This document shows, piece by piece, positions 3,042 through 39,005 of a stretch of 64,000 nucleotides of DNA. Source of the DNA: a virus (lineage: Duplodnaviria > Heunggongvirae > Uroviricota > Caudoviricetes); IMG/VR virus record IMGVR_UViG_3300037258_000549, positions 1 through 64,000 of that record. One strand, 5' to 3'. The notes below the pieces were generated by a model. That model was not told the DNA's origin and did not search any database. It saw only the letters and a list, made by a program, of their open reading frames with translations. The position numbers and the translations under genes are program-made. Position 1 is the stretch's first letter. Each line of letters starts with the position of its first letter.

Positions 3042-3840
3042 GCGTGGTAAGGGCGGGCTGGAGGTGGTCCGGTTAGTCGGCGTGGGACGGACAGGGCAGG
3101 CACGTCGGTACGGAGCGGTTAGTCGGCGTGGCCAGGGTGGGCGGGGGATGGTCCGGTTAGTCGGCGGGGAACGGAGGGGCGGCCTGGGTAGTCGTCGACA
3201 GGGAATGGCATGTCGGCGTGTGCTGGCCGGGGCAGGTTTGGCTTGGCACGTCGGTACGGGGTGGGACGGCTCGTAATGAGGTGGGCGGGCTTGTCGGGCG
3301 GGTCGGAAACGGGTCGGGATGCGGTGGGATGGCTTGTCGGCGGGGGCTGGGACGGGCCGATAAGGGCAGGCATGGGAAGGCCAGTCGGCGGGGGCCAGGG
3401 ATGGCAGGGGTAGTCACCGGGGTGGGCGGGGGTTGGGAGGAGCTGTCGACGGAGAGGGTCGTCCTGGATTGGGTCGGCCAGTCGGAGTGGGCAGGCACGG
3501 GGCGGACTGTGGCGGTTGGGTACGTCGGTGCGGGGCGGTGGGGTTCGGCATGGTCGGTCGGCGCAGGCAGGCACGGGGCGGACGGTCGGCGCGGGCGGGT
3601 ACGGACAGGACCGGCGAGGCTTGTCGGCAGGGGCCGGGGCGGAACGACTGGTGATGGGTTGTCGATGCGGGCTGGGGCGGATCGGAATGGTCAGTCGGCA
3701 AGGAATGGCGGGGCCAGGGACGGGAGGAGTAGTCGGCGGGGCTGGGACGGGCGGGAACGGGTCGGGATGCGGTGGGATGGCTTGTCGGGGCGGTCAGGGG
3801 CGGGTCGGGCTGTAAAGGAGTGGATCGTCGGTCAAAGCTT
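3042..3840. repeat. Block B2 of RGTCGGYRCGG repeats (G-rich on + strand)
   Basis: Same motif family as B1. Starts immediately after the terminator and ends in the conserved boundary followed by the 3910 motif. Confidence 0.8.
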
Positions 3841-8487: not shown

Positions 8488-8517
8488 TTGACCGGGTGAG
8501 CAGTAAGCCGTTACGGT
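8488..8517 (+). promoter_or_regulatory. Candidate sigma-70-like promoter for the ncRNA array
   Basis: TTGACC, 18-nt spacer, TACGGT (TAnnnT class). Directly upstream of the first repeat unit. Confidence 0.3.
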
Positions 8518-8552
8518 TGGTCTTGCTTAAGAGAGGCCTCCGGTCGGGCAAC

Positions 8553-8719
8553 GGGCCGGAAGAGAATCGGTTATCCATGCGGAGGACGAGGTCGCGGGGT
8601 GCAACTCCTCGCCACCTGGGTTAATCTCAGGTGTAGCTCAGCACAGAGCGCGTAAACCCCGGTTTTCATACACATGCCCGTTGCTCGACCAGGCTGATTT
8701 TGATAACTACATAGCTGGC
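8553..8719 (+). ncRNA. Y-RNA-like module 1
   Basis: Conserved 23-mer, GGTGCAACTCC T-arm-like segment, GGTGTAGCTCAGCACAGAGCGC D-arm-like segment. Confidence 0.35.
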
Positions 8720-8885
8720 GGGCCGGACGAGAATCGGTTATCGCCTTACAAGCGAGTGGTTGCAGGTTCAAGTCCTGTCATCCGGGAGAAATTTTGGGTG
8801 TAGCTCAAATGGCAGAGCGCTTAAACCCGGTTTTCACTCACACGCCTGCCAGTCTTACGACAATTACATAGACTATATAGCAAAC
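8720..8885 (+). ncRNA. Y-RNA-like module 2
   Basis: Conserved 23-mer. T-arm GCAGG-TTCAAGT-CCTGT, then TCATCCGGG pairing with the CCGGACGA of the 23-mer as an acceptor-like stem. D-arm-like segment. Confidence 0.4.
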
Positions 8886-9042
8886 GGGCCGGACGAGAAT
8901 CGGTTACCCACATTTAATGGAGAAGGCGCGAGGGTGTAAGTCCCTCGCCACCTGGAGGTAGACGGGTGTAGCTCAGGACAGAGCGCTTAAACCCCGGTAC
9001 TCACTAACATGCCCGTCTGCTTAACAACTGCACAGCGCTAGC
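8886..9042 (+). ncRNA. Y-RNA-like module 3
   Basis: Conserved 23-mer. T-arm-like GAGGG-TGTAAGT-CCCTC. Hairpin GACGGGT...GCCCGTC enclosing the D-arm-like segment. Confidence 0.35.
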
Positions 9043-9461
9043 GGGCCGGAATCGGTCGGTTACCCTTCAAACAGCACACTCGGTCGGTGTACCCACGCCC
9101 GCTAGCCCATAATTACATAGGAAGCCTGGCGGGCCGGACGAGGATCGGTTATCGATGGTTCGACTCCACCTGCTGGTGTCACAGCTGGCAAAGCCCGATG
9201 GCGGGCACTGCTCTCGTTTAGACGGGAGTTTTCCCCGGTACTCAAGGACCCATGCCTGCCAGGCTTCACCGTAGTGTCGGCCTCTTCAATAAGTCCTTCG
9301 CACGGCGGAGTGCACCCAACCGGGAGGCCGATGGTTAAGGGGCACACGACGGCTCGCGGGCCGGATAACGGTCGGTTATCTCCCTTTCAACAGAGAACAC
9401 AACCCGGCAGTCGGTTACACGCCCGCGAGCCTTCTTTTACGCCACATCAGACAGGATCATC

Positions 9462-9809
9462 ATGAGTGACTGCACTCCCCGGCGGCGCTACGCCGAGCGG
9501 GAGGCGGCCGAGCAAGCTAAGGCTGCAGCTGTGGAGGCAGCCCGGTGGAAGGACCCGTTTACCCCGCTGGAACGATGGTTCTCCCGGCTGCCGAATACCT
9601 TTCTGGAAGAGAAGTGCCATTGCGGGTCGGGTAAGCCGCTCCTGTACTGGTCGCCGGAGGATGGCGACGGCTGCAAGGATTGCGCTGGGTCACTGCATGT
9701 ATATATTCCTGAAGCAGTGATGTACAACGTAATGGATAAGTTTGGTATTACCGGGGACGTCCGGGCGCAGGTTTATGCTCAGATCGAGAAGTCGCGAGAG
9801 GAGAGGTAG
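9462..9809 (+). CDS. Cys-rich hypothetical protein
   Basis: RBS and ATG. CHCGSG...CKDC motif. Confidence 0.5.
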   Translation: MSDCTPRRRYAEREAAEQAKAAAVEAARWKDPFTPLERWFSRLPNTFLEEKCHCGSGKPLLYWSPEDGDGCKDCAGSLHVYIPEAVMYNVMDKFGITGDVRAQVYAQIEKSREER

Positions 9810-9810
9810 C

Positions 9811-11481
9811 ATGAACGATCCGCTGAAGCAGGTCATCACCCGGGTTACTCCTCAGAGTGAGCAGGCCGATTCGCGTCAGGTTCTCAACAATGCGGGCGGC
9901 TACGGGTTCCAGGTCACCGGTGACGCGCGACTCCACCGATTTCTGACACTAGGCACTTCATCAGGCACTTACTACGTGCGCGAGCAGGACCTTACCAAGC
10001 AGAACGCTGCGGTCGTACTCGACTGGGCGAAGAACCGGCCGGGTGAGCTAGTGGAGAAGCTTACTGAGGTTTCCGTGCAGGGCCGGGCCCCGCGGAACAA
10101 TGCTGCGCTGTTCGCGCTGGCCGCCGCGGCGGGGCTGGGCAGCGAAAACGGCCGCAAGCAGGCACTGGGCGCGCTGCCGCTGGTGGCCCGCACCGGCACC
10201 CACCTGTACACCTGGGCCGGGTACTGCCAGCAATTTCGTGGCTGGGGGCGCGGGATGCGCCGTGCGGTCAGCGACTGGTACCTGGCCAAGGACGCCGACC
10301 AGCTCGCTTACCAGATGGTTAAATATCGTGCGCGGGACGGTTGGAAGCACGCGGACCTGCTGCGGCTTGCCCACCCCGGGTACGAGAAGGGCGGGTACGC
10401 TAGCGATGCCTCGCCCGCGCACCGGGCGCTGTTCAACTTCGCCTGCGGGCGTCCGGCGGGAGATAACCTGCCGCCACTGGCCGCGGCCTACCTGGAAGCA
10501 CTTGGTATCGACCGCAGCACGGCCGGGGCTAAAGCGAAGGGCGCCGCGTACGTGCGGTTGATCGCGCAGAACCCGGGACTACCCTGGGAGGCGCTGCCGG
10601 ACGGTGCGCTGACCCAGCCGGACGTGTGGGCGGAGCTGATCCGGCACGGCCTGCCGCAGACGGCACTGCTGCGTCAGCTGCCCCGGCTGACCACCCTCGG
10701 CGTGCTGACCCAGCTGGGCGTGATCACTGACCTGGTAACCGCGCAGCTGGCTGACACCAATCGGCTGCGCAAGGCCCGGGTACACCCGATTGCCGTACTA
10801 CTTGCGGCGAAGACTTATGCGTCTGGTCACGCGGTGCGCGGTGACGGCCACTGGGCGCCGGTGCCGAAGGTAACCGATGCGCTCGATGCTGCGTTCTATG
10901 CTGCGTACGGTGCGATTGAGCCAGCGAACAAGCGGACAATGGTAGCGCTGGACGTGTCCGGGTCGATGGGTGCCGCGGTCGGCGGGCTGCCACTCACCTG
11001 CCGGGAAGCTTCGACGGCGCTGGCCCTGGTCACCGCTGCGACTGAATCGCAGGTGCTGATTACCGGGTTCACTGCGGGTAGCAGACCGTCCCGGTGGGGA
11101 GCTAGTTACGGTACGGCAATTAGTCTGCTGAACATCAGCCCGCGGCAGCGGCTCGACGACGCGGTCAGCGCGATCTCCGGCCTGCCGTTCGGCGGCACCG
11201 ACTGCTCACTGCCGATGCTGTGGGCGATGCAGAACAAGGTCGAAGTCGATACTTTCGAAATCATTACGGATAATGAGACGTGGGCGGGGGATATCCATCC
11301 GCATCAGGCGCTGGAGCAGTACCGGCAGCAGACTGGTATCCCGGCTCGGCTCGCTGTCGCGGCAATGACCAGCACGGACTTTACCATCGCCGATCCGGAC
11401 GACCCGGGCAGCCTAGATATTTCCGGACTCGATGCCGCGGTGCCGACGCTGCTAAGCGATTTTTCTCGGGGCAGTATCTGA
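9811..11481 (+). CDS. rsr: Ro60/Rsr-like ribonucleoprotein (TROVE-like N-terminal domain plus C-terminal vWA domain)
   Basis: RBS GAGGAGAGG then ATG. ~555 aa. C-terminal MIDAS motif DVSGSM and a downstream TDC/GGTD element. The size and TROVE+vWA architecture match bacterial Rsr. Adjacent to the Y-RNA-like array. Confidence 0.6.
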   Translation: MNDPLKQVITRVTPQSEQADSRQVLNNAGGYGFQVTGDARLHRFLTLGTSSGTYYVREQDLTKQNAAVVLDWAKNRPGELVEKLTEVSVQGRAPRNNAALFALAAAAGLGSENGRKQALGALPLVARTGTHLYTWAGYCQQFRGWGRGMRRAVSDWYLAKDADQLAYQMVKYRARDGWKHADLLRLAHPGYEKGGYASDASPAHRALFNFACGRPAGDNLPPLAAAYLEALGIDRSTAGAKAKGAAYVRLIAQNPGLPWEALPDGALTQPDVWAELIRHGLPQTALLRQLPRLTTLGVLTQLGVITDLVTAQLADTNRLRKARVHPIAVLLAAKTYASGHAVRGDGHWAPVPKVTDALDAAFYAAYGAIEPANKRTMVALDVSGSMGAAVGGLPLTCREASTALALVTAATESQVLITGFTAGSRPSRWGASYGTAISLLNISPRQRLDDAVSAISGLPFGGTDCSLPMLWAMQNKVEVDTFEIITDNETWAGDIHPHQALEQYRQQTGIPARLAVAAMTSTDFTIADPDDPGSLDISGLDAAVPTLLSDFSRGSI

Positions 11482-11590
11482 GGTGGAGAGATGTAGCAAC
11501 CTGGCCTGCCTGATCTGCTACCCGTTGCAGACGAAGACAGGCCAGGTGCTGACCGGAAGCCGAGCGCGGTTACGACGTCGGGGGTACCTG

Positions 11591-12016: not shown

Positions 12017-12241
12017 ATGGACGTGCGTGCAGCGCTGGCCCGTGATTACCACCGGGCGGCGGCCCGGCAGGTCGAACTGGCCCGCCGGGACCGTCGGCAG
12101 CGCGACCGGCTAGTCCGGGAGCTGCGTGAGGAGGACTCCGCTAGCTGGACCTACGAGGCGCTCGCGACGGCGGTGGGTTGCTCTCCCGAGTTGATCGCTT
12201 TTATTTGCAAGAACGAGTCGGCGCCAGAGAAAGGGAGCTGA
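12017..12241 (+). CDS. Small helix-turn-helix DNA-binding protein
   Basis: In-frame ATG with an RBS. C-terminal HTH-like WTYEALATAVGCSPELI. Confidence 0.45.
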   Translation: MDVRAALARDYHRAAARQVELARRDRRQRDRLVRELREEDSASWTYEALATAVGCSPELIAFICKNESAPEKGS

Positions 12242-32851: not shown

Positions 32852-33616
32852 ATGCCATTGCCTGACCTGCCATTGTTCAGCTCGCATAATGTTGTGCTGC
32901 CGAACGGCAGGCTAACCGCCCCGGGTCTGCCTCTAGTATCTGATTCGTATGCCTGTCGTGCTGCACTGCGCGCGCTGGATCAGGTGTTCGGGGATGCCCG
33001 CGAGGGAGTTACCGTTGCTGATCTCGGCTCTCTAGAGGGTGGTTATGCCGCTGCGTTCGCCCGTGCCGGGTACGACGTAACTGGTTTTGAGGCAAGGCAG
33101 GAAAATCACGACAATGCGGTATGGCTTCAGGAGGCCCTGGGACTGCCGAACCTTCGCTTCGTCCAGGGTGACGCCCGCGAGCTACTAGAGGGCAGGCAGT
33201 TCGACGTAGTGTTCTGTTCCGGGCTGCTCTACCATCTCGACAAGCCAGTAGCTTTTCTGAAACTGCTTGGCCAGGTGACCCGGCGCATGCTCGTCTTGAA
33301 TACTAACGTCTCGCAGCCGGGCACGGGTCACCCGGAAACGGCGCACCATCCGGGCAGCGGGTGTGATTATGGCGCTTATGAAAACGAGGGACGTCAGGGG
33401 CACTGGTACCGCGAGAGTGTTACCCGCTGGGACAGTTACGGCAATTCGCTGTCGTTCTGGCTGCGTAGGGACGACCTCATGGACAGCCTCCGAGAAGACG
33501 CCGGGTTTGCCACGGTGACTGAAATACCCGACTGGCGTGACGGCTCTCTCAAGGATCATGTTCCGGGAGGTGCCGGGCCTTTCGCTGACCGGCGCATGTT
33601 CACGGCGCTCAAGTGA
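32852..33616 (+). CDS. Class I SAM-dependent methyltransferase
   Basis: RBS GAGGAGGG then ATG. VADLGSLEGG motif I. Confidence 0.6.
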   Translation: MPLPDLPLFSSHNVVLPNGRLTAPGLPLVSDSYACRAALRALDQVFGDAREGVTVADLGSLEGGYAAAFARAGYDVTGFEARQENHDNAVWLQEALGLPNLRFVQGDARELLEGRQFDVVFCSGLLYHLDKPVAFLKLLGQVTRRMLVLNTNVSQPGTGHPETAHHPGSGCDYGAYENEGRQGHWYRESVTRWDSYGNSLSFWLRRDDLMDSLREDAGFATVTEIPDWRDGSLKDHVPGGAGPFADRRMFTALK

Positions 33617-35109
33617 CCGCCTTCGTCATCCTCGCCGCCGGCCCCGGCACCCGGATGGGCCGGCCGGGCGATACGCTGCACAAGGCGCTAGTGCCATTGG
33701 GTAGCCAAGCGGTTATCTCGCGCCAAATCGGCCTCGCGCCGCCGGGCGCCCGGGTCATCGTGTGCACCGGCAGCCGGGCGCAGCAGGTCCGCGGCTACCT
33801 GGAGCTTGCCCATCCGGACCTGCCGGTGACGTTCGTGAACGTACCGGACTGGGACCAGCCGGAGAACGGGCCGGGAGCGTCGCTGCTGGCCGCGCGGGAT
33901 GCGATCAATGGCGACGACCTGGTTTTCACCGCATGCGACACGCTATGGCGGGCAGATGAGTCGCTGTGGAAGGCGGATGCGTCCTGGTCTGCCGTCGCGC
34001 CCGTCCCGGCGGGTACCCCTTTGGCGCGCTGGTGCCGGATCGGCGTTTTTGACGGCGACCGGGCCTGGGGGATTCTCGACAAGATCCCGGATTACGCCGG
34101 GGCAGGCGACGCGTACACCGGACTGTCTATGATCCTGCGGGGCGACCTAGGCGTCTTCTGGGCAGGCATCGAGAACTCGGGCCTGTCAGGCGGCGAGAAG
34201 CGAGACGTGGCGGGCCTGGCCGCGCTGACCATGAACGGCGCCCTGGCTGTACGGCGTATCACCTGGACGGACACCGGAGACGAGGCCGCCTACCAGCGCG
34301 CGGTCGCTGCCTGGTCTGGCTACGACTGGTCCAAGCCCGATGAGGTGACCTACGTGCTGCCCGAGCAGGGCCGCGTCGTCAAATTCCGGGCAGACCAGGG
34401 GTCAGTCACACGGCGCGTGCAGCGGCAGGCGACGATCGCTGCCGCGGTCCCAGTGCTGACAGGCACGCGTCCGGGCCTGTTTGCTTACGAGTACGTATCG
34501 GGGGTGACCGGTTACACTGCCGCTGAGAGCGATCCGGAGCTGGTGCCGCGGCTGCTGGACTGGGCGCAGGCGAACCTGTGGCGTCCCGTGTCGTTCGCAG
34601 ACGACCTCACGCGTACGTGTGACCTGTTCTACCGGGTCAAGACCACCGCTCGCACCGGGCAGCTCCGACCGGGGCTCCAGCCGGCTGCCTGGGATGCGGC
34701 CAGCCATGTTGACTGGGACAAGCTAGTACGAGGCTGCGTACCGGTTACTTTTCACGGCGACTTCAATCTCGGCAACGTGATCGTGATGCCGGACGGTGGA
34801 TTCCGCGGCATCGACTGGCGCGAAGACTTCGGCGGCAATACCACTTGGGGTGACCTGCGCTACGACCTTGGCAAGCTAGCCGCGGGGCTGATCGTGCACT
34901 GGGAAAACGCCCAGCGCGGTGACTTCCGCCCCTGGGAAGCCGGAAAGCAGCACCTGGCCAGGCTGGCAGACTGGTTGGGCGGGACGATTCCGCATGACGT
35001 GATGCTGATCGCGGCTTTGTCGCTGCTGAACTGCGCCCCGTTGCATGCCGCGCCGCTCGACGAGATACTGGTGGTCCGCGCTATCGCACTCCTAGAGGAA
35101 CTAGCTTGA
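33613..35109 (+). CDS. Bifunctional nucleotidyltransferase (N-terminal) and APH/choline-kinase-like kinase (C-terminal)
   Basis: FVILAAGPGTRMG (sugar-phosphate nucleotidyltransferase G-loop). C-terminal HGDFNLGNVIVMPDGGFRGIDWRE kinase motif. Confidence 0.6.
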   Translation: MTAFVILAAGPGTRMGRPGDTLHKALVPLGSQAVISRQIGLAPPGARVIVCTGSRAQQVRGYLELAHPDLPVTFVNVPDWDQPENGPGASLLAARDAINGDDLVFTACDTLWRADESLWKADASWSAVAPVPAGTPLARWCRIGVFDGDRAWGILDKIPDYAGAGDAYTGLSMILRGDLGVFWAGIENSGLSGGEKRDVAGLAALTMNGALAVRRITWTDTGDEAAYQRAVAAWSGYDWSKPDEVTYVLPEQGRVVKFRADQGSVTRRVQRQATIAAAVPVLTGTRPGLFAYEYVSGVTGYTAAESDPELVPRLLDWAQANLWRPVSFADDLTRTCDLFYRVKTTARTGQLRPGLQPAAWDAASHVDWDKLVRGCVPVTFHGDFNLGNVIVMPDGGFRGIDWREDFGGNTTWGDLRYDLGKLAAGLIVHWENAQRGDFRPWEAGKQHLARLADWLGGTIPHDVMLIAALSLLNCAPLHAAPLDEILVVRAIALLEELA

Positions 35110-35876
35110 AACCCGGTGACGTATCTTTGTGGATTGTCAGCTTTCGGCGGCTGGAGGCATTGCACCGCACGGTCAGCGACTGGCTCGGATCGTTTCCGTT
35201 TGAGGCGGTCAACATTATCGCTAATGACCCGGACGTCAGTTACGAGCTGGTTGAGACCGCCTTCCCGCAGGTGAAAGTCTGGCGTAATATTTTCCGGTCG
35301 CCCTGGGAAACGGGGAGCATTGCCTGGTGCTGGAACCAGTGCATGCGGCATACCTTTGAAACACGCCAATGGTGCCTAATGTCGCAGGATGATGTAGCTG
35401 TAACGCCTGGCTGGCCTGAGCTGGTCACCGGTGATCACTGGATGTACGTTGCACCGGTCGGGGACACGATCCAGCTGCAGTCGCTGGCGGGATTTAATGT
35501 CGTCGGCTGGTTCGACGAGCGGTTCCGCGCCATCGGCGGGCCGGAGAATGACTACCTGCTCCGCGCTTTGCAGGTCTGCCCGGACCAGCTGTCGGTGCAC
35601 GACGAGCATGTCTGGCAGCTGCGGCATAACGACGTTGGGCTGGCTGACTACTGGCACGGAGTGCCGAAAGACGGCGAGGTGGGCGCGACGCGGGCGAGCT
35701 TTAACGCTCCGTTCGCTGACGCTGAGTGCTTCGCCCGGTGGACGCAGAAATGGGGTACCCCCGTGGACGACTTGTTTAACGGGCATCATTACGATATAAT
35801 GCGCCAGCCGGGCTGGGACGAGATCGACTGGTACCCGTCGTTCACCCGGCGGCTAGCGGAATTGGGGCGACGGTGA
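35106..35876 (+). CDS. Putative glycosyltransferase
   Basis: TTGA overlap start. SQDD motif. Position in the cassette. Confidence 0.4.
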   Translation: MKPGDVSLWIVSFRRLEALHRTVSDWLGSFPFEAVNIIANDPDVSYELVETAFPQVKVWRNIFRSPWETGSIAWCWNQCMRHTFETRQWCLMSQDDVAVTPGWPELVTGDHWMYVAPVGDTIQLQSLAGFNVVGWFDERFRAIGGPENDYLLRALQVCPDQLSVHDEHVWQLRHNDVGLADYWHGVPKDGEVGATRASFNAPFADAECFARWTQKWGTPVDDLFNGHHYDIMRQPGWDEIDWYPSFTRRLAELGRR

Positions 35877-36778
35877 AAACGGCACTAGTTACCGGCCACC
35901 TAGGGTTCGCCGGGCGCCACTACAAGGCCGAGCTAGAAGTCCGCGGGTGGAAAGTAGACGGTATCGATCTAGGTAGCCCGCTCGGTGGTGACGCGCGCCG
36001 GTTCTTCCTGAGCAATGATTCACGCGGCTACGACCTCGTCGTTAACTGCGCAGCTGTCGTCGGCGGCCGGGAGGTCATTGATGGTGCGCCGCTTGCGCTG
36101 GCTGCCAACCTGGAGCTGGACGCAGGGTTTTTCCAGTGGGCAGCGCGCGTTAAGCCGGGCCGTATCGTCTACCTTTCTTCTTCAGCGGTTTACCCGGTAC
36201 ACCGGCAGCAGCTGCGTGACCACCGTAAGCTCGTCGAGAGCGACGTTGACCCGATGCTGGCCGGGGATACCGTCGGCATTCCCGATCAGTTGTACGGCTG
36301 GGCAAAACTCACCGGTGAGCACCTGGCCGTGCGCGCGCGCGCCGCGGGGTTGAGCGTTACAGTCGTCCGGCCGTTTTCTGGCTACGGCAGCGACCAAGAT
36401 AAAAGCTACCCGTTTCGCGCGTTCACTGAGCGCGCTAAGGCCCGCGAGGACCCGTTCGAGATCTGGGGCAGCGGCCAGCAGGTGCGCGACTTCATTCATA
36501 TTGACGACATCGTTGCCGCTACCCTACTCATGGTTCACGAAGACCGTGACGGGCCGGTGAACCTCGGCACCGGGCGCGCGGTGTCGATGAGTGCGCTGGC
36601 CCGGATGTTCTGCGCGGCTGCCGGGTACAGTCCGTTTATCCTGCCGCGCCGGGACGCACCGACCGGAGTCAGCTACCGGGTGGCCGACTCGACGGCACTT
36701 ACGGAGTTCTACCAGCCCCGGGTTCTCCTGGAAGACGGTATCCGGCGGGCGTTGCAGGAGCGCATCGGTGCCCGGTAG
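35873..36778 (+). CDS. NAD-dependent epimerase/dehydratase (SDR)
   Basis: GTGA overlap start. ALVTGHLGFAGRH (GxxGxxG) and YGWAK (YxxxK). Confidence 0.7.
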   Translation: MKTALVTGHLGFAGRHYKAELEVRGWKVDGIDLGSPLGGDARRFFLSNDSRGYDLVVNCAAVVGGREVIDGAPLALAANLELDAGFFQWAARVKPGRIVYLSSSAVYPVHRQQLRDHRKLVESDVDPMLAGDTVGIPDQLYGWAKLTGEHLAVRARAAGLSVTVVRPFSGYGSDQDKSYPFRAFTERAKAREDPFEIWGSGQQVRDFIHIDDIVAATLLMVHEDRDGPVNLGTGRAVSMSALARMFCAAAGYSPFILPRRDAPTGVSYRVADSTALTEFYQPRVLLEDGIRRALQERIGAR

Positions 36779-37406
36779 TCAGGACCTGCCGGTCCGGCAT
36801 TACTATCACATCTACGCGGACGGTGCCTGGCCTGCGCCGGTGCGTGAGCACTTTCGGTCCCTAGGCCGGTACGCGCTAGCGACAGATATGACGGTTGGTA
36901 TAGTCGGGGCACCCGGAGACCGGGAGAAGGTCCGGGAGATGATTACCTTGCGTGCGCGCAGCCAGGCGCTCCCGGTTCCGGTGCACTGGGTGGAGGCGGA
37001 TCACGGCTGGGAGCAGCTAACCCTCCAGCAAGTCTACGATGACGTGCACCAGGCTCCGGGTGACTACGCCGTTTTTTACGCGCACACGAAAGGTGCTTTC
37101 GTAGACTCGGAGTTTAACGCTTACTGGCGCTGGTCGATCACCCGGGAACTGGTCGGGGAGTGGCGGCGCTGCACGGTGCTGCTTGCTGACCATGACATGG
37201 TGGGCTGCCACTGGATTAAGGCGCCAGAACAGGGTCACCCTAGCCGGCCGATGATCTTCGCCGGTAATTTCTGGTGGGCGACGGCGGCGTACCTGCGCCA
37301 GCTGCCACCACCGGGCAATGAAACCCGGTATGCTGCCGAAGACTGGGTAGCCCAGGGTAACCCAAAGGTTTATGATATGTTGCCCGGTTTCCCGGAGTAC
37401 TCGTAA
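36768..37406 (+). CDS. Hypothetical protein, paralog of the 16926 gene
   Basis: GTG start overlapping the epimerase stop. Shares the RHYYHIY-DG, YAHTKGA, HDMVGCHW and AGNFWWA motifs. Confidence 0.5.
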   Translation: MPGSQDLPVRHYYHIYADGAWPAPVREHFRSLGRYALATDMTVGIVGAPGDREKVREMITLRARSQALPVPVHWVEADHGWEQLTLQQVYDDVHQAPGDYAVFYAHTKGAFVDSEFNAYWRWSITRELVGEWRRCTVLLADHDMVGCHWIKAPEQGHPSRPMIFAGNFWWATAAYLRQLPPPGNETRYAAEDWVAQGNPKVYDMLPGFPEYS

Positions 37407-37413
37407 AAGGGGA

Positions 37414-37707
37414 ATGACTGTGCCGGATAACCGGGTACTGATGACCGGCGGCGGGACTGATTACCGTCCCGCGGGGGGCTGCCCGGTGGCCGGCGAGAAG
37501 TACGGGAATGGTGAGTTCATGGCGCACCAGGGAGACCCGGATTCTTTCCTGGTGGCTGAGGCGCGGGTGAAAGACGGCAGCGCAAGCGTGCGCGTCGCGG
37601 TGTGGGCCTGTGTTTTCTGCCAGGCAGAGCTGATCGGCCTCGGTAAGCCGGAAGAGCTACTGGATGCGCAGGATTTCAGCTGGTTCGAGCGGAGCAGGGG
37701 AGGCTAG
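37414..37707 (+). CDS. Small Cys-containing hypothetical protein
   Basis: RBS AAAGGGG. ATG 37414 or GTG 37420. Confidence 0.35.
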   Translation: MTVPDNRVLMTGGGTDYRPAGGCPVAGEKYGNGEFMAHQGDPDSFLVAEARVKDGSASVRVAVWACVFCQAELIGLGKPEELLDAQDFSWFERSRGG

Positions 37708-37762
37708 TCGGCATGAGTTCGCCGCTGGTGAGCATCATCTGCTCTTGAACGGGTGCTATTAA

Positions 37763-38392
37763 GTGTGCATAGTTGAAGGGTGCAACAAGCCGGTGCGATG
37801 CCGTAACCTGTGCTCGAAGCATTATAGGCGCTGGTTGCGGTACGGTGACCCACTAGGAGGTAAACCGTCTCCGGTACCGAGTCCGCTTGACGGATTGTGC
37901 ACGATTGACGACTGTAATATTTTGCATTATGCTCATGGCTGGTGTGAGATGCATTACGCGCGCTGGAGAAGGTCTGGCGATCCGTTGGTTGCGAGAAAGC
38001 GCCGTAAGGCACCGGTTGATGGTTATTGTACAGTATTTGAATGCAAGGAACAGCACCTAGCACGCGGTTTGTGTAATATGCACTATCAGCGATGGAGGGC
38101 GCATGGAGATCCGCTAATCTTTCTGGTTACGCCTTCTGGTCCGGGGGATCACCAATGGAAAGGCATGGATGCGGGTTACCTTCCGAAACACCGTCGAGTC
38201 GAGACAGCGCGTGGTAAAGCCAAGTTTGGGTCCTGTATTTGGGAAGATCTAACTGATAATTGCAAAGGTATCATGGATTGGGCTAATATGACGGGAAACT
38301 ACGACAGCGTCTGGGACTTTGAGCCTATGTGCCGAAAACATCATAATCGGTACGATGGGGCTAGGCGGAGATGTAATGTTGCCGTTGTGTAG
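37763..38392 (+). CDS. HNH endonuclease with three N-terminal CxxC...HYxRWxRxGDP zinc-binding repeats; AT-richer than its neighbours
   Basis: Three tandem repeats of C..C......C..HY.RW.R.GDP. C-terminal CRKHHNRYDG (HNH). Codons are visibly AT-richer than the flanking genes. Confidence 0.55.
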   Translation: MCIVEGCNKPVRCRNLCSKHYRRWLRYGDPLGGKPSPVPSPLDGLCTIDDCNILHYAHGWCEMHYARWRRSGDPLVARKRRKAPVDGYCTVFECKEQHLARGLCNMHYQRWRAHGDPLIFLVTPSGPGDHQWKGMDAGYLPKHRRVETARGKAKFGSCIWEDLTDNCKGIMDWANMTGNYDSVWDFEPMCRKHHNRYDGARRRCNVAVV

Positions 38393-39005
38393 TATCATAA
38401 CACCTACGTGGAAGAGAAATTCGCTTCTTCTGAACAGGTGCATCCCTAGCGTTGATGCGCAAGTATACCCGAACGTCGAGCACCTGATTATTTCGGATGG
38501 CCCTGATCCGGAGCTGGCAGAAAAGATGTTCCCGCTGCAGCGGGCGGGCCAGCGCAGCCGGTGGTTCCTTCAGCTAGCTGAGCACGACCCGGCGCCGCAC
38601 TGGGGGCACCTGGCCCGGTCGCACGGAATTGAGCTGGCAGCCGGGGAGCTGATCGGTTACGTCGATGACGATGACGCGCTGCGCCCGCAGCACGTCGAGT
38701 TGCTGGCTGCCGCGCTGGCGGCGCACCCGGAAGCGGGCTGGGCCTGCTCCGTTATGGCTTCGCACCGGCCGCCGGACGGAACAGTGACGGAGATCGGCCA
38801 CGGGCCGCCGTCCGCGGGCAATATCGGTACCCCGGTAATCGTTCACCGCCGTGAGATCCTGGAGCACGGCACGTGGGGACCGCCGTCAGCCCTGGAAGAC
38901 TGGGAAATGGTTAACCGCTGGCTGCACGTGGGAATCCCGCACGTCAAGGTGGAAGAGGTTACTGTTGACGTGTGGCCGTCGATTTATTACGGTCCTGGTC
39001 ACTAA
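38376..39005 (+). CDS. Family 2 glycosyltransferase
   Basis: RBS AGGCGGAG then ATG. CSIITPTWKRN...EHLIISDGPD and YVDDDD. Confidence 0.65.
   Translation: MLPLCSIITPTWKRNSLLLNRCIPSVDAQVYPNVEHLIISDGPDPELAEKMFPLQRAGQRSRWFLQLAEHDPAPHWGHLARSHGIELAAGELIGYVDDDDALRPQHVELLAAALAAHPEAGWACSVMASHRPPDGTVTEIGHGPPSAGNIGTPVIVHRREILEHGTWGPPSALEDWEMVNRWLHVGIPHVKVEEVTVDVWPSIYYGPGH

What the first reader, a model, noticed from the sequence alone, without database searches (positions are those of the whole stretch)
8488..11481. Tandem array of ~6 Y-RNA-like tRNA-mimic modules upstream of a Ro60/Rsr-like gene
- **Array.** 8553-9445 is ORF-free and consists of ~160-bp units. Each unit starts with GGGCCGGACGAGAATCGGTTATC (units 4 and 6 are degenerate or truncated).
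- **tRNA-like parts.** Each unit carries a T-arm-like hairpin (GCAGG-TTCAAGT-CCTGT in unit 2, GAGGG-TGTAAGT-CCCTC in unit 3, GGTTCGACTCC in unit 5) and a D-arm-like GGTGTAGCTCA-N6-AGAGCGC segment. In unit 2 the 3' TCATCCGGG pairs with the CCGGACGA of the conserved 23-mer, forming an acceptor-like stem of tRNA length.
- **Partner gene.** The gene directly downstream (9811-11481) has the size and TROVE+vWA architecture (MIDAS DVSGSM) of Ro60/Rsr.
- **Context.** Bacterial and some phage rsr loci are known to be accompanied by Y RNAs whose second domain mimics tRNA. A six-fold reiterated array with a strictly conserved 23-nt module is unusual. It could titrate or program an Rsr/exoribonuclease RNA-degradation machine during infection.
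- A large hairpin (ACCTGGCCTG-N29-CAGGCCAGGT, ~11505-11553) follows rsr.
Basis: partly seen in the sequence, partly recalled or inferred. Interest (0 to 1): 0.75.

Follow-up and report, generated by a model that had tools for sequence, protein, structure and literature searches.

The report
Six phage Y RNAs beside Ro60/Rsr
A previously unsequenced high-GC phage carries six small structured RNA genes of the known Y RNA kind (three of them tRNA look-alikes) directly in front of the gene for their protein partner Ro60/Rsr; this is a larger-than-described but otherwise ordinary example of a known RNA-protein system.

Summary
Window 8542-9435 (+) holds six tandem RNA modules and one extra conserved hairpin. 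The gene at 9811-11481 is a full-length Ro60/Rsr (TROVE + Ro60 vWA, MIDAS DVSGSM; E 4e-101 to D. radiodurans Rsr).

Every module has a covarying closing stem made from its 5' and 3' ends. Every module also has the 5' strand GGGCCGGA-N5-6-TCGGTTA, a one-base variant of the published Ro60-binding motif.
- U1-U3 are YrlA-type tRNA mimics with V hairpin, T arm, closed acceptor-like hairpin, UA linker and D arm.
- U5 has a T arm only, like M. smegmatis YrlB.
- U4 and U6 are complete minimal Y RNAs, not truncated copies.

A covariance model built only from YrlA-type RNAs of isolated actinophages scores U1-U3 at 67-83 bits. Rfam's YrlA model stays under threshold (29 bits), but it also does so (36 bits) in a cluster-C1 mycobacteriophage, the group where YrlA was published.

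Two points of the finding fail. The U2 acceptor pairing with the conserved 5' motif is not conserved in relatives. Six-fold reiteration is not exceptional: 2-10 such modules precede rsr in many viral contigs.

Verdict: a new member of a known kind. No expression or binding data exist. The proposed mechanism, Y RNAs tethering Rsr to host exoribonuclease or tRNA-binding factors, is inferred from published systems.

The parts
8488..8517 (+). Candidate promoter TTGACC-N18-TACGGT ahead of the first unit (inferred)
   Evidence: Read by eye. A similar TTGACC-N17-TACACT lies just before the first unit in the closest relative, L001 2618-2646. The E. coli-type consensus scan did not flag it.
8542..8690 (+). 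U1: YrlA-type Y RNA (closing stem, Ro-motif GCCGGAAG, V hairpin, T arm with variant loop UGCAACU, acceptor-like hairpin, UA linker, D arm)
   Evidence: 15-bp closing stem; MFE -71 kcal/mol, z -5.5. R1 65.3 bits. R2 66.7 bits. Closest counterpart is L001 A2, 79% identity in the inner domain.
8709..8858 (+). U2: YrlA-type Y RNA with canonical T loop UUCAAGU and a GG-containing D loop
   Evidence: R1 60.5 bits. R2 83.4 bits, E 9e-20. Rfam YrlA 29.4 bits at 8754-8824 and Rfam tRNA 30.2 bits at 8723-8786. The MFE fold is the YrlA architecture.
8875..9025 (+). U3: YrlA-type Y RNA (T loop UGUAAGU)
   Evidence: R1 58.9 bits. R2 67.4 bits. Fold. Its 5' inner part matches 15 of 18 bases of the M. smegmatis YrlA sequence deduced from the published probe (PMC4201824).
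9032..9111 (+). U4: short (minimal) Y RNA: closing stem, Ro-motif, second helix, small loop
   Evidence: R1 52.7 bits. R2 25.4 bits. Fold.
9120..9268 (+). U5: Y RNA with a T arm directly after GGUUAUC, followed by further hairpins and no D arm (M. smegmatis YrlB-like)
   Evidence: 14-bp closing inverted repeat (I3). MFE -70.8 kcal/mol, z -3.9. Alignment with four homologues in other viral contigs shows a covarying closing stem. Neither covariance model reported it at the thresholds used.
9276..9332 (+). Extra conserved hairpin without the Ro-motif, between U5 and U6
   Evidence: Conserved in L001 within 3118-3192. Four pairs there are kept through changes on both sides, and the loops are identical. 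No Rfam match. Function unknown.
9347..9435 (+). U6: short (minimal) Y RNA. Its GC-rich closing stem is followed by UUCUUUU, a possible partial terminator (inferred)
   Evidence: R1 63.5 bits. Fold z -3.6. Counterpart is L001 A4, 65% identity in the inner domain.
9462..9809 (+). Small ORF (115 aa, four Cys) between the array and rsr. Function unknown
   Evidence: Called as a gene in an independent assembly of the same phage. No Pfam hit. Only the N-terminus resembles the ORF at the same place in L001.
9811..11481 (+). rsr: Ro60/Rsr protein (TROVE ring + vWA domain with MIDAS DVSGSM)
   Evidence: Pfam TROVE 4.9e-38 and vWA_Ro60 5.6e-58. PDB 2nvo 4.3e-101 and Xenopus Ro60 1yvp 7.6e-92. Translation.
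11499..11549 (+). Stable hairpin in a ~108-nt intergenic insert after rsr, with no U-tract
   Evidence: z -3.5. Absent in L001, where the next gene overlaps the rsr stop.
12017..12241 (+). Small helix-turn-helix-like protein conserved downstream of rsr (possible regulator; inferred)
   Evidence: The motif WTYxALAxAVGCSPELIA is found downstream of rsr in 10 other viral loci. Weak, sub-threshold Pfam HTH_3 and HTH_31 hits. Gene call.

Best explanation
Window 8542-9435 encodes six distinct Y RNAs of the bacterial/phage YrlA-YrlB kind, in tandem on the + strand. They are probably transcribed from a promoter near 8488-8517 and cut into individual RNAs. The gene for their protein partner, Ro60/Rsr, follows at 9811-11481.

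All six share one module: a closing stem of the 5' and 3' ends, then GGGCCGGA..., an internal loop and a second helix. By homology with characterised Y RNAs, this is the Rsr-binding site.

The units differ in the distal 'effector' module.
- U1-U3 carry a circularly permuted tRNA mimic.
- U5 carries a T arm plus other hairpins.
- U4 and U6 carry almost nothing.

During infection the RNAs would assemble with phage Rsr into ribonucleoproteins. By analogy with D. radiodurans Rsr/Y RNA/PNPase and Thermus phage phiLo Ro60/Yrl/PNPase, the distal modules would tether the Rsr ring to a host 3'-5' exoribonuclease or to tRNA-binding enzymes, and would gate access to the ring. This would redirect degradation or quality control of structured RNA.

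Shown here: the identity of the protein, the RNA folds, their homology to YrlA-type RNAs, and the tight genomic coupling to rsr. Inferred: expression, processing, Rsr binding and the partner enzymes.
For: **Protein**
- TROVE + vWA_Ro60 domains, and a full-length match to solved Rsr and Ro60 structures.

**RNA**
- The motif occurs 5 times against 0 expected, all on one strand.
- Each unit folds with its 5' and 3' ends paired (z -1.8 to -5.5; weakest for U4).
- Across 16 units from three phages, the closing stem and second helix are 82% paired, against 71% in shuffles and 31-48% when the partner is slid.
- 44 cells changed on both sides, against 16 in shuffles (0/500 shuffles as high). Up to four pair types occur per position.
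- Frequent G-U pairs fix the strand as +.
- The YrlA architecture (V, T, AS, UA, D) is recovered by consensus folding and listed per unit.

**Homology**
- A covariance model built only from Phox, Cashline and Sparky RNAs hits U2, U3 and U1 full-length at 83.4, 67.4 and 66.7 bits.

**Coupling to rsr**
- 31 of 32 clusters of two or more motifs in fetched loci lie next to rsr on the same strand. The remaining locus is only 1.7 kb long.
- No units occur elsewhere in the window.

**Age of the paralogues**
- Several units resemble counterparts in other phages more than each other. U1-A2 is 79% and U2-B5 74%, against 64-73% among U1-U3. They are maintained paralogues, not fresh duplicates.

**Published mechanism**
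- PMC4201824, bioRxiv 10.1101/312249 and PMC12135203.
Against: - There is no expression, processing or binding evidence for this phage.
- Rfam YrlA scores 29.4 bits against a gathering score of 69.
- The 5' motif is GCCGGA, not the published GNCGAA.
- U1 and U3 have T loops without U54-U55-C56, and the U1 D loop lacks GG. They may therefore not mimic tRNA tertiary structure fully.
- U5 was not reported by either of my covariance models.
- No PNPase was seen among the proteins scanned. About 40 of roughly 98 candidate ORFs were scanned.
- The promoter and terminator are read by eye and were not flagged by the consensus scan.
Confidence: 0.8

Rival explanations
1. The tRNA-like units act mainly on their own, as decoys or sponges for host tRNA-directed factors such as anticodon nucleases, tRNA-modifying enzymes, RNase P or CCA-adding enzyme. 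Rsr would merely stabilise or chaperone them. On this view the array is a phage counter-defence or tRNA-metabolism tool rather than an adaptor for an exoribonuclease.
For: - U1-U3 have acceptor-like hairpins of about 6-8 bp, read from the unit sequences. Each is followed by UA and a D arm.
- Published M. smegmatis YrlA, with a 7-bp stem, is cut by RNase P and receives CCA (PMC4201824).
- In related phages rsr and Y units sit inside large tRNA gene arrays. One contig has about 35 tRNAs, an RNase P RNA, six Y units and then rsr.
- In Gordonia phage Sixama a YrlA-type unit lies between two tRNA genes.
Against: - Three of the six units (U4, U5, U6) lack a full tRNA mimic, yet keep the Rsr-type stem module.
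- The strict linkage to rsr points to a joint function.
- No tRNA-targeting defence is known for the unknown host.
Confidence: 0.12
2. The array is chiefly a cis-acting leader of the rsr mRNA. Rsr would bind the repeated stems in its own 5' untranslated region and so regulate its own synthesis or the stability of the transcript. The units would not be released as free RNAs.
For: - The units lie on the same strand and immediately upstream of rsr in nearly all loci.
- No strong terminator was found between the array and rsr.
Against: - In Sixama and in a Chloroflexota MAG contig the units lie downstream of rsr.
- In the window and in L001, one or two ORFs separate the array from rsr.
- Homologous RNAs in Salmonella and M. 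smegmatis accumulate as free Rsr-bound RNAs (PMC4201824).
- Distinct effector domains conserved across phages would be needless for autoregulation.
Confidence: 0.04
3. The units are decayed remnants of a tRNA gene array, or DNA-level repeats such as protein-binding iterons, with no RNA function.
For: - One unit passes the Rfam tRNA threshold by 1 bit.
- Phage tRNA arrays often lie next to rsr.
- An HTH-like protein is conserved nearby.
Against: - ARAGORN finds no tRNA in the array.
- The tRNA alignment lacks a D arm and uses a pairing that is not conserved in counterpart units (sequences).
- Compensatory changes and G-U pairs preserve RNA helices that join the two ends of each unit, on one strand only. 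DNA-binding sites and pseudogenes would not preserve these.
- The architecture is conserved from mycobacteriophages to this phage.
Confidence: 0.03

Closest known systems
YrlA (Rfam RF02553; S. Typhimurium, M. smegmatis, mycobacteriophage ET08; Chen et al. 2014, PMC4201824; Wang et al. 2018, bioRxiv 10.1101/312249)
   Same: - Encoded next to rsr on the same strand.
- Long stem made of the 5' and 3' ends, with a conserved 5' strand.
- Distal domain of T stem-loop, closed acceptor-like stem-loop, UA linker and D stem-loop, with the Y stem in place of the anticodon stem.
- U1-U3 show all of these. They score 67-83 bits with a model built from isolated-phage YrlA-type RNAs.
   Different: - The 5' motif is GCCGGA(A/C)G rather than GNCGAAN0-1G.
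- The Rfam model reaches only 29.4 bits. It also reaches only 36.1 bits in mycobacteriophage Phox.
- U1 and U3 have non-canonical T loops.
- There are three YrlA-type copies in one locus.
YrlB of M. smegmatis (Chen et al. 2014)
   Same: A second Rsr-bound Y RNA that carries a T arm but not the full tRNA mimic. U5 has GGUUAUC followed directly by a GGUUCGACUCC T arm. The sequence deduced from the published YrlB probe also has UAUC...GGUUCGACU.
   Different: U5 carries further hairpins that are conserved only among viral contigs.
Thermus phage phiLo Ro60 with Yrl1 and Yrl2 (PMC12135203)
   Same: A phage-encoded Ro60 with Y-RNA-like genes directly upstream. In vitro the RNAs bind the phage Ro60 and form ternary complexes with host PNPase.
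   Different: phiLo has two RNAs, against six here. The phiLo RNAs were chosen by the CGAA motif and a stem-bulge-stem fold, and no tRNA-like domain is described for them. The host phylum is different.
D. radiodurans Rsr / Yrn1 / PNPase complex (RYPER), with four small RNAs encoded upstream of rsr (as summarised in PMC4201824)
   Same: Several small RNAs are clustered upstream of rsr. The Y RNA tethers Rsr to an exoribonuclease. This is the mechanistic template used here.
   Different: Yrn1 belongs to a separate, more metazoan-like lineage. Both strands of its Ro-binding helix are conserved, and its T- and D-like arms are in a different order. Only two of the four RNAs were accepted as Y RNAs.
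Y-like units of isolated actinophages: Mycobacterium phages Phox (cluster C1) and Sparky, Gordonia phages Cashline and Sixama
   Same: They have the same stem module and YrlA-type units next to the annotated 'Ro-like RNA binding protein'.
   Different: They carry 1-3 units rather than six. The records do not annotate them, and in Phox they lie under 'hypothetical protein' CDSs. Rsr is only 52-56% identical.

Membership tests
Ro60/Rsr protein | TROVE (HEAT-repeat ring) domain followed by a vWA domain with a MIDAS motif | tested here: met
   Pfam TROVE 4.9e-38 and vWA_Ro60 5.6e-58. DVSGSM is present. Full-length match to 2nvo at 4.3e-101 and to 1yvp at 7.6e-92.
Y RNA (general) | 80-150-nt RNA whose 5' and 3' ends pair into a long stem, interrupted by an internal loop or bulge, that carries the Ro60 site | tested here: met
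   All six units fold this way. The stem covaries across 16 units.
Y RNA (general) | Physically bound by Ro60/Rsr | not testable with these tools
   Needs immunoprecipitation or gel-shift assays. Only genomic linkage could be shown.
YrlA (RF02553) | Encoded within 4 kb of rsr on the same strand | tested here: met
   The units end 376 nt upstream of rsr on the + strand.
YrlA (RF02553) | Conserved 5'-strand motif GNCGAAN0-1G in the Rsr-binding stem | tested here: inconclusive
   The window units have GCCGGAA, GCCGGAC or GCCGGAT, one base away from the motif. Phox units have GCCGAAG, GCCGAGA and GCCGATT, and Cashline has GCCGGAG. The position therefore also varies in isolated phages.
YrlA (RF02553) | T stem-loop, closed acceptor-like stem-loop, UA linker and D stem-loop, in that order | tested here: met
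   Met for U1-U3, including UA before GCUC. Only U2 has the canonical T loop UUCAAGU. Not met for U4, U5 and U6.
YrlA (RF02553) | Score at or above the Rfam gathering threshold (69 bits) | tested here: not met
   29.4 bits, model positions 23-87 only. Control: the YrlA-type unit of cluster-C1 mycobacteriophage Phox gets 36.1 bits over the same span. The threshold therefore excludes this actinophage lineage as a whole.
YrlA (RF02553) | Homology to YrlA-type RNAs of isolated actinophages, by an independent covariance model | tested here: met
   Model R2 was built from Phox, Cashline (two units) and Sparky only. It scores U2 at 83.4, U3 at 67.4 and U1 at 66.7 bits, full length.
tRNA (RF00005) | Cloverleaf with acceptor stem from the two ends, D arm, anticodon arm and T arm, detectable by tRNA finders | tested here: not met
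   The Rfam hit at 8723-8786 is 30.2 bits against a threshold of 29, with the D arm reduced to 5 nt. ARAGORN finds nothing in the array. The acceptor pairing is not kept in the L001 and L012 counterparts (sequences).

The most novel reading that the evidence does not exclude
Phages of this group may use one Rsr ring as a common chassis, programmed by a library of up to about ten Y RNAs. The effector ends fall into several classes: canonical tRNA mimic, tRNA mimic with altered T and D loops, T arm only, and minimal. Each class would dock Rsr onto a different host factor, such as PNPase, RNase P, CCA-adding enzyme, tRNA-modifying enzymes or anticodon nucleases. That would give the phage a multiplexed system for taking over host RNA decay and tRNA surveillance, or for countering tRNA-directed defence. 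The conservation of distinct unit classes across phages and the embedding of rsr and Y units in tRNA and RNase P RNA gene arrays are compatible with this reading but do not show it.
Probability: 0.25. Interest if true: 0.65.

Novelty: new member of a known kind. Interest (0 to 1): 0.4.

Why it matters
- Y RNA/Ro60 particles are studied as adaptors that specialise exoribonucleases and as tRNA mimics. The work I could read covers loci with one or two verified Y RNAs.
- This locus and its relatives show that phages keep three to about ten structurally distinct Y RNAs beside one Rsr gene. That gives a natural series of effector modules on a constant Rsr-binding stem, which can be used to test what the effector end recruits.
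- The units are unannotated in deposited actinophage genomes. In at least one they are covered by 'hypothetical protein' calls. The Rfam YrlA threshold also misses this lineage. The stem model and the YrlA-type model built here could correct both.
- The finding does not reveal a new kind of system.

Tried and rejected
- **Rfam at gathering threshold.** On the window it found only the marginal tRNA hit in U2. On 11 related loci it found tRNAs and one RNase P RNA, but no YrlA.
- **First motif-plus-stem scripts.** One had an off-by-one error in the stem register. The corrected version was swamped by chance matches in this GC-rich DNA. I replaced them with covariance models.
- **Stem model with filters off.** It lost the long units, because hits longer than the model's window are not scored. 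The default mode was better.
- **blastn of the array against isolated phages.** It matched only the rsr gene.
- **Scan of bacterial genomes with Rsr peptides.** It returned only two loci, so I could not properly compare bacterial and phage array sizes.
- **Reviews on bacterial Y RNAs and the supplementary tables of Chen et al. 2014.** None were held. The largest published number of Y RNAs per locus could therefore not be checked.
- **Literature search for YrlC and YrlD.** It gave nothing relevant.
- **Rejected readings.**
  - A tRNA gene in U2 is rejected: it lacks a D arm and the acceptor pairing is not conserved.
  - The downstream hairpin as an rsr terminator is rejected: it has no U-tract and is absent in L001.
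  - The ORFs inside the array are rejected: they are short and have low GC3.


Full report
**Setting**

The window is a high-GC (63.9%) genome segment of a tailed phage. It encodes a large terminase, a portal protein, a head maturation protease and a major head protein at 17.3-26.7 kb. No close relative exists among deposited phage genomes. Only the rsr gene aligns, at 66-67% nucleotide identity, mostly to Mycobacterium, Streptomyces and Gordonia phages. The same Rsr protein sequence is encoded on an 18-kb contig in an independent public assembly (SRR11832711). The closest relative I found is an IMG/VR viral contig (L001) whose Rsr is 77% identical.

**Check of the observation**

- The motif GGGCCGGANNNNNNTCGGTTA occurs five times in 64 kb. 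All copies are on the + strand between 8553 and 9378, against 0.00 expected from shuffles.
- A sixth copy at 9043 has a spacer one base shorter.
- Start-to-start spacing is 167, 166, 157, 88 and 227 nt, so the array is not a regular 160-bp repeat.
- The only ORFs in the region are 40-81 aa. The two longest have GC3 of 0.49-0.57, against about 0.7-0.85 in genes of this genome.
- The downstream gene 9811-11481 has Pfam TROVE (4.9e-38) and vWA_Ro60 (5.6e-58) domains.
- It contains the MIDAS sequence DVSGSM.
- It matches D. radiodurans Rsr (2nvo, 4.3e-101) and Xenopus Ro60 (1yvp) over its whole length.

**Anatomy of the units**

Folded alone, each unit pairs its 5' and 3' ends into a closing stem of 10-15 bp. 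An internal loop follows, then a second helix of about 9 bp (GAGAAUCGG with CCGGUUUUC in U1), and then a variable distal domain. With 11-nt flanks the coordinates are:

| Unit | Coordinates |
|---|---|
| U1 | 8542-8690 |
| U2 | 8709-8858 |
| U3 | 8875-9025 |
| U4 | 9032-9111 |
| U5 | 9120-9268 |
| U6 | 9347-9435 |

- **U1-U3.** From 5' to 3' they carry a small hairpin with a 7-nt loop, a T arm, a closed hairpin of 6-8 bp, the dinucleotide UA, and a D arm GCUC-loop-GAGC. This is the published YrlA architecture. It is a circularly permuted tRNA mimic whose acceptor stem is a closed hairpin and whose anticodon stem is continued by the Y stem (PMC4201824; bioRxiv 10.1101/312249).
- **U5.** It has a T arm immediately after GGUUAUC (UGG-UUCGACU-CCA) and then further hairpins, with no D arm. 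Four homologues in other viral contigs keep this plan.
- **U4 and U6.** These are short but complete. Each has a closing stem, the motif, the second helix and a small loop.
- **A seventh element.** This hairpin at 9276-9332 lacks the motif. It is conserved in L001 with identical loops, and four of its pairs are kept through changes on both sides.

**Is the structure real?**

I aligned the stem modules of 16 units from the window, L001 and L012 and counted pairs.

| Measure | Observed | Shuffled | 3' partner slid 1-3 columns |
|---|---|---|---|
| Cells forming a standard pair | 82% | 71% | 31-48% |
| Cells changed on both sides | 44 | 16.4 (0 of 500 shuffles as high) | 10-24 |

- The variable part of the closing stem shows up to four pair types per position, for example UA, CG, AU and GC.
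- G-U pairs are frequent, which fixes the transcribed strand as +.
- Caveat: I chose the structure after looking at these same sequences, and they are related to each other, so both controls are lenient. The number of different pair types at columns 7-10 is still hard to explain otherwise.

**Is it YrlA?**

- Rfam's YrlA model matches U2 only at 29.4 bits (gathering score 69), over model positions 23-87, which is the tRNA-like core.
- As a control I ran the same search on Mycobacterium phage Phox. Phox belongs to the same group as ET08, the phage for which Chen et al. reported a YrlA. Its YrlA-type unit scores 36.1 bits over the same span. The threshold therefore excludes this actinophage lineage in general.
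- I then built a covariance model (R2) from four YrlA-type units of isolated phages only: Phox, Cashline (two units) and Sparky.
- R2 finds U2, U3 and U1 full-length at 83.4, 67.4 and 66.7 bits (E 1e-19 to 2e-15). It finds nothing outside the array in the window.
- The stem-only model R1 likewise finds units only in the array.
- Short stretches of the M. smegmatis YrlA and YrlB sequences, deduced from the published probes, match U3, U2 and U5. That evidence is thin.

**The tRNA hit**

Rfam tRNA scores 30.2 bits (threshold 29) at 8723-8786. It uses the small hairpin as an anticodon arm and has almost no D arm.

In the counterpart units of L001 (A1) and L012 (B5) this pairing is weakened or lost (sequences). 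The closed acceptor-like hairpin is present in every YrlA-type unit and is part of the minimum-energy fold of U2. ARAGORN calls no tRNA in the array. I therefore read the tRNA hit as a by-product of the mimicry.

**Linkage to rsr and size of arrays**

- Among all loci fetched, 32 clusters of two or more motifs were found. Of these, 31 lie next to an rsr homologue on the same strand, and the exception is a 1.7-kb fragment.
- Cluster sizes by motif count range from 2 to 9. The window, L012 and L109 have six each. L046 reads as about ten units.
- These loci were partly selected by the motif itself, so the distribution is biased.
- Isolated phages have fewer units. By reading their sequences, Phox has three and Cashline and Sparky two each. 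By model hits, Sixama has at least three, two of them inside its tRNA gene array.
- None of these units is annotated. In Phox they lie under two 'hypothetical protein' CDSs.
- A Chloroflexota MAG contig has about four to six units downstream of rsr, so arrays may not be limited to phages.
- The papers I could read describe two Y RNAs each in Salmonella, M. smegmatis and phage phiLo, and four candidates in D. radiodurans (PMC4201824, PMC12135203). The relevant reviews and supplementary tables were not available.

**Age of the paralogues**

The inner domains of U1-U3 are 64-73% identical to each other. U1 is 79% identical to L001 A2, and U2 is 74% identical to L012 B5. U5 and U6 likewise pair best with counterparts in other phages. 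U4 pairs best with L012 B1. The unit types therefore predate the divergence of these phages and are being maintained as distinct genes.

**Mechanism**

Shown here: the protein family, the RNA folds, their homology, and the genomic linkage to rsr.

Inferred from published systems:
- The shared stem binds the outer surface of the Rsr ring.
- The distal module recruits another protein. That protein is PNPase in D. radiodurans and, in vitro, in phage phiLo (PMC4201824, PMC12135203).

The candidate promoter TTGACC-N18-TACGGT (8488-8517) has a counterpart in L001. The U-rich tract after U6 suggests one transcript with partial termination before rsr. Both are read by eye, and the consensus scan did not flag either.

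**Verdict**

This is a new member of the known Rsr/Y RNA (YrlA/YrlB) kind, in an unsequenced phage lineage, with more Y RNA genes per locus than the literature I could access describes. Related viral contigs show the same expansion. Nothing points to a new kind of system.

Noticed in passing
window 12017-12241 (+): A 74-aa protein with a helix-turn-helix-like motif (WTYxALAxAVGCSPELIA) is conserved shortly downstream of rsr in 10 other viral loci. It has weak, sub-threshold Pfam HTH_3 and HTH_31 hits. It may regulate the rsr/Y RNA locus.
   Followed up: partly
window 9276-9332 (+): A structured hairpin without the Ro-motif lies between U5 and U6. It is conserved in L001 with identical loops (CAAUAAGUCC and GUGCACCCAACCGGG) and compensatory stem changes. 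It matches no Rfam family and its function is unknown.
   Followed up: partly
window 11482-11590 (+): A ~108-nt insert between rsr and the next gene (true start ATG 11591) holds a stable hairpin at 11499-11549. In L001 the two genes overlap and the insert is absent.
   Followed up: partly
window 58961-59035 (-) and 60038-60110 (-): ARAGORN calls tRNA-Pyl(cta) and tRNA-Ile(gat) here. The Rfam tRNA model does not reach threshold at either site, and both lie inside long ORFs. They are probably false calls. If so, the window has no real tRNA gene.
   Followed up: partly
L012 536-887 and 130-5590 (IMG/VR contig of 190 kb): This viral contig encodes a full bacterial-type RNase P RNA (261 bits) and about 35 tRNA genes. 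Six Y RNA units and rsr follow directly.
   Followed up: no
L136 5389-5528 (Gordonia phage Sixama, MN484601) and L013 2527-2886 (Mycobacterium phage Phox, MF919527): Unannotated Y RNA units occur in deposited phage genomes. In Sixama a YrlA-type unit (88 bits) sits exactly between tRNA-Gln and tRNA-Ile. In Phox three units lie under two 'hypothetical protein' CDSs.
   Followed up: partly
window 8590-8612 and 8925-8947 (T arms of U1 and U3): U1 and U3 have T loops UGCAACU and UGUAAGU, which lack the U54-U55-C56 of tRNA, and the U1 D loop lacks GG. Nearly all units with a canonical UUCRANU T loop whose D loop could be read have GG there. This hints that the T and D loops change together.
   Followed up: partly
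window 8696-8716, 8862-8884, 9022-9040, 9108-9128: The spacers before the closing stems of U2-U5 share a motif AA(C/T)T(A/G)CA(T/C)AG. The same motif is seen in L001 and L012. It may be a processing site or a promoter element.
   Followed up: no
window 60982-62205 (-): A 407-aa protein has a just-sub-threshold match to the Rv2179c-like 3'-5' exoribonuclease domain (26.2 vs 27 bits). This is the only nuclease-like hit among the proteins scanned.
   Followed up: no
window 33613-39005 (+): A cluster of sugar-modification genes lies within the phage genome: a MobA-like nucleotidyltransferase fused to a kinase-like domain, an NAD-dependent epimerase/dehydratase, and a family-2 glycosyltransferase.
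   Followed up: no
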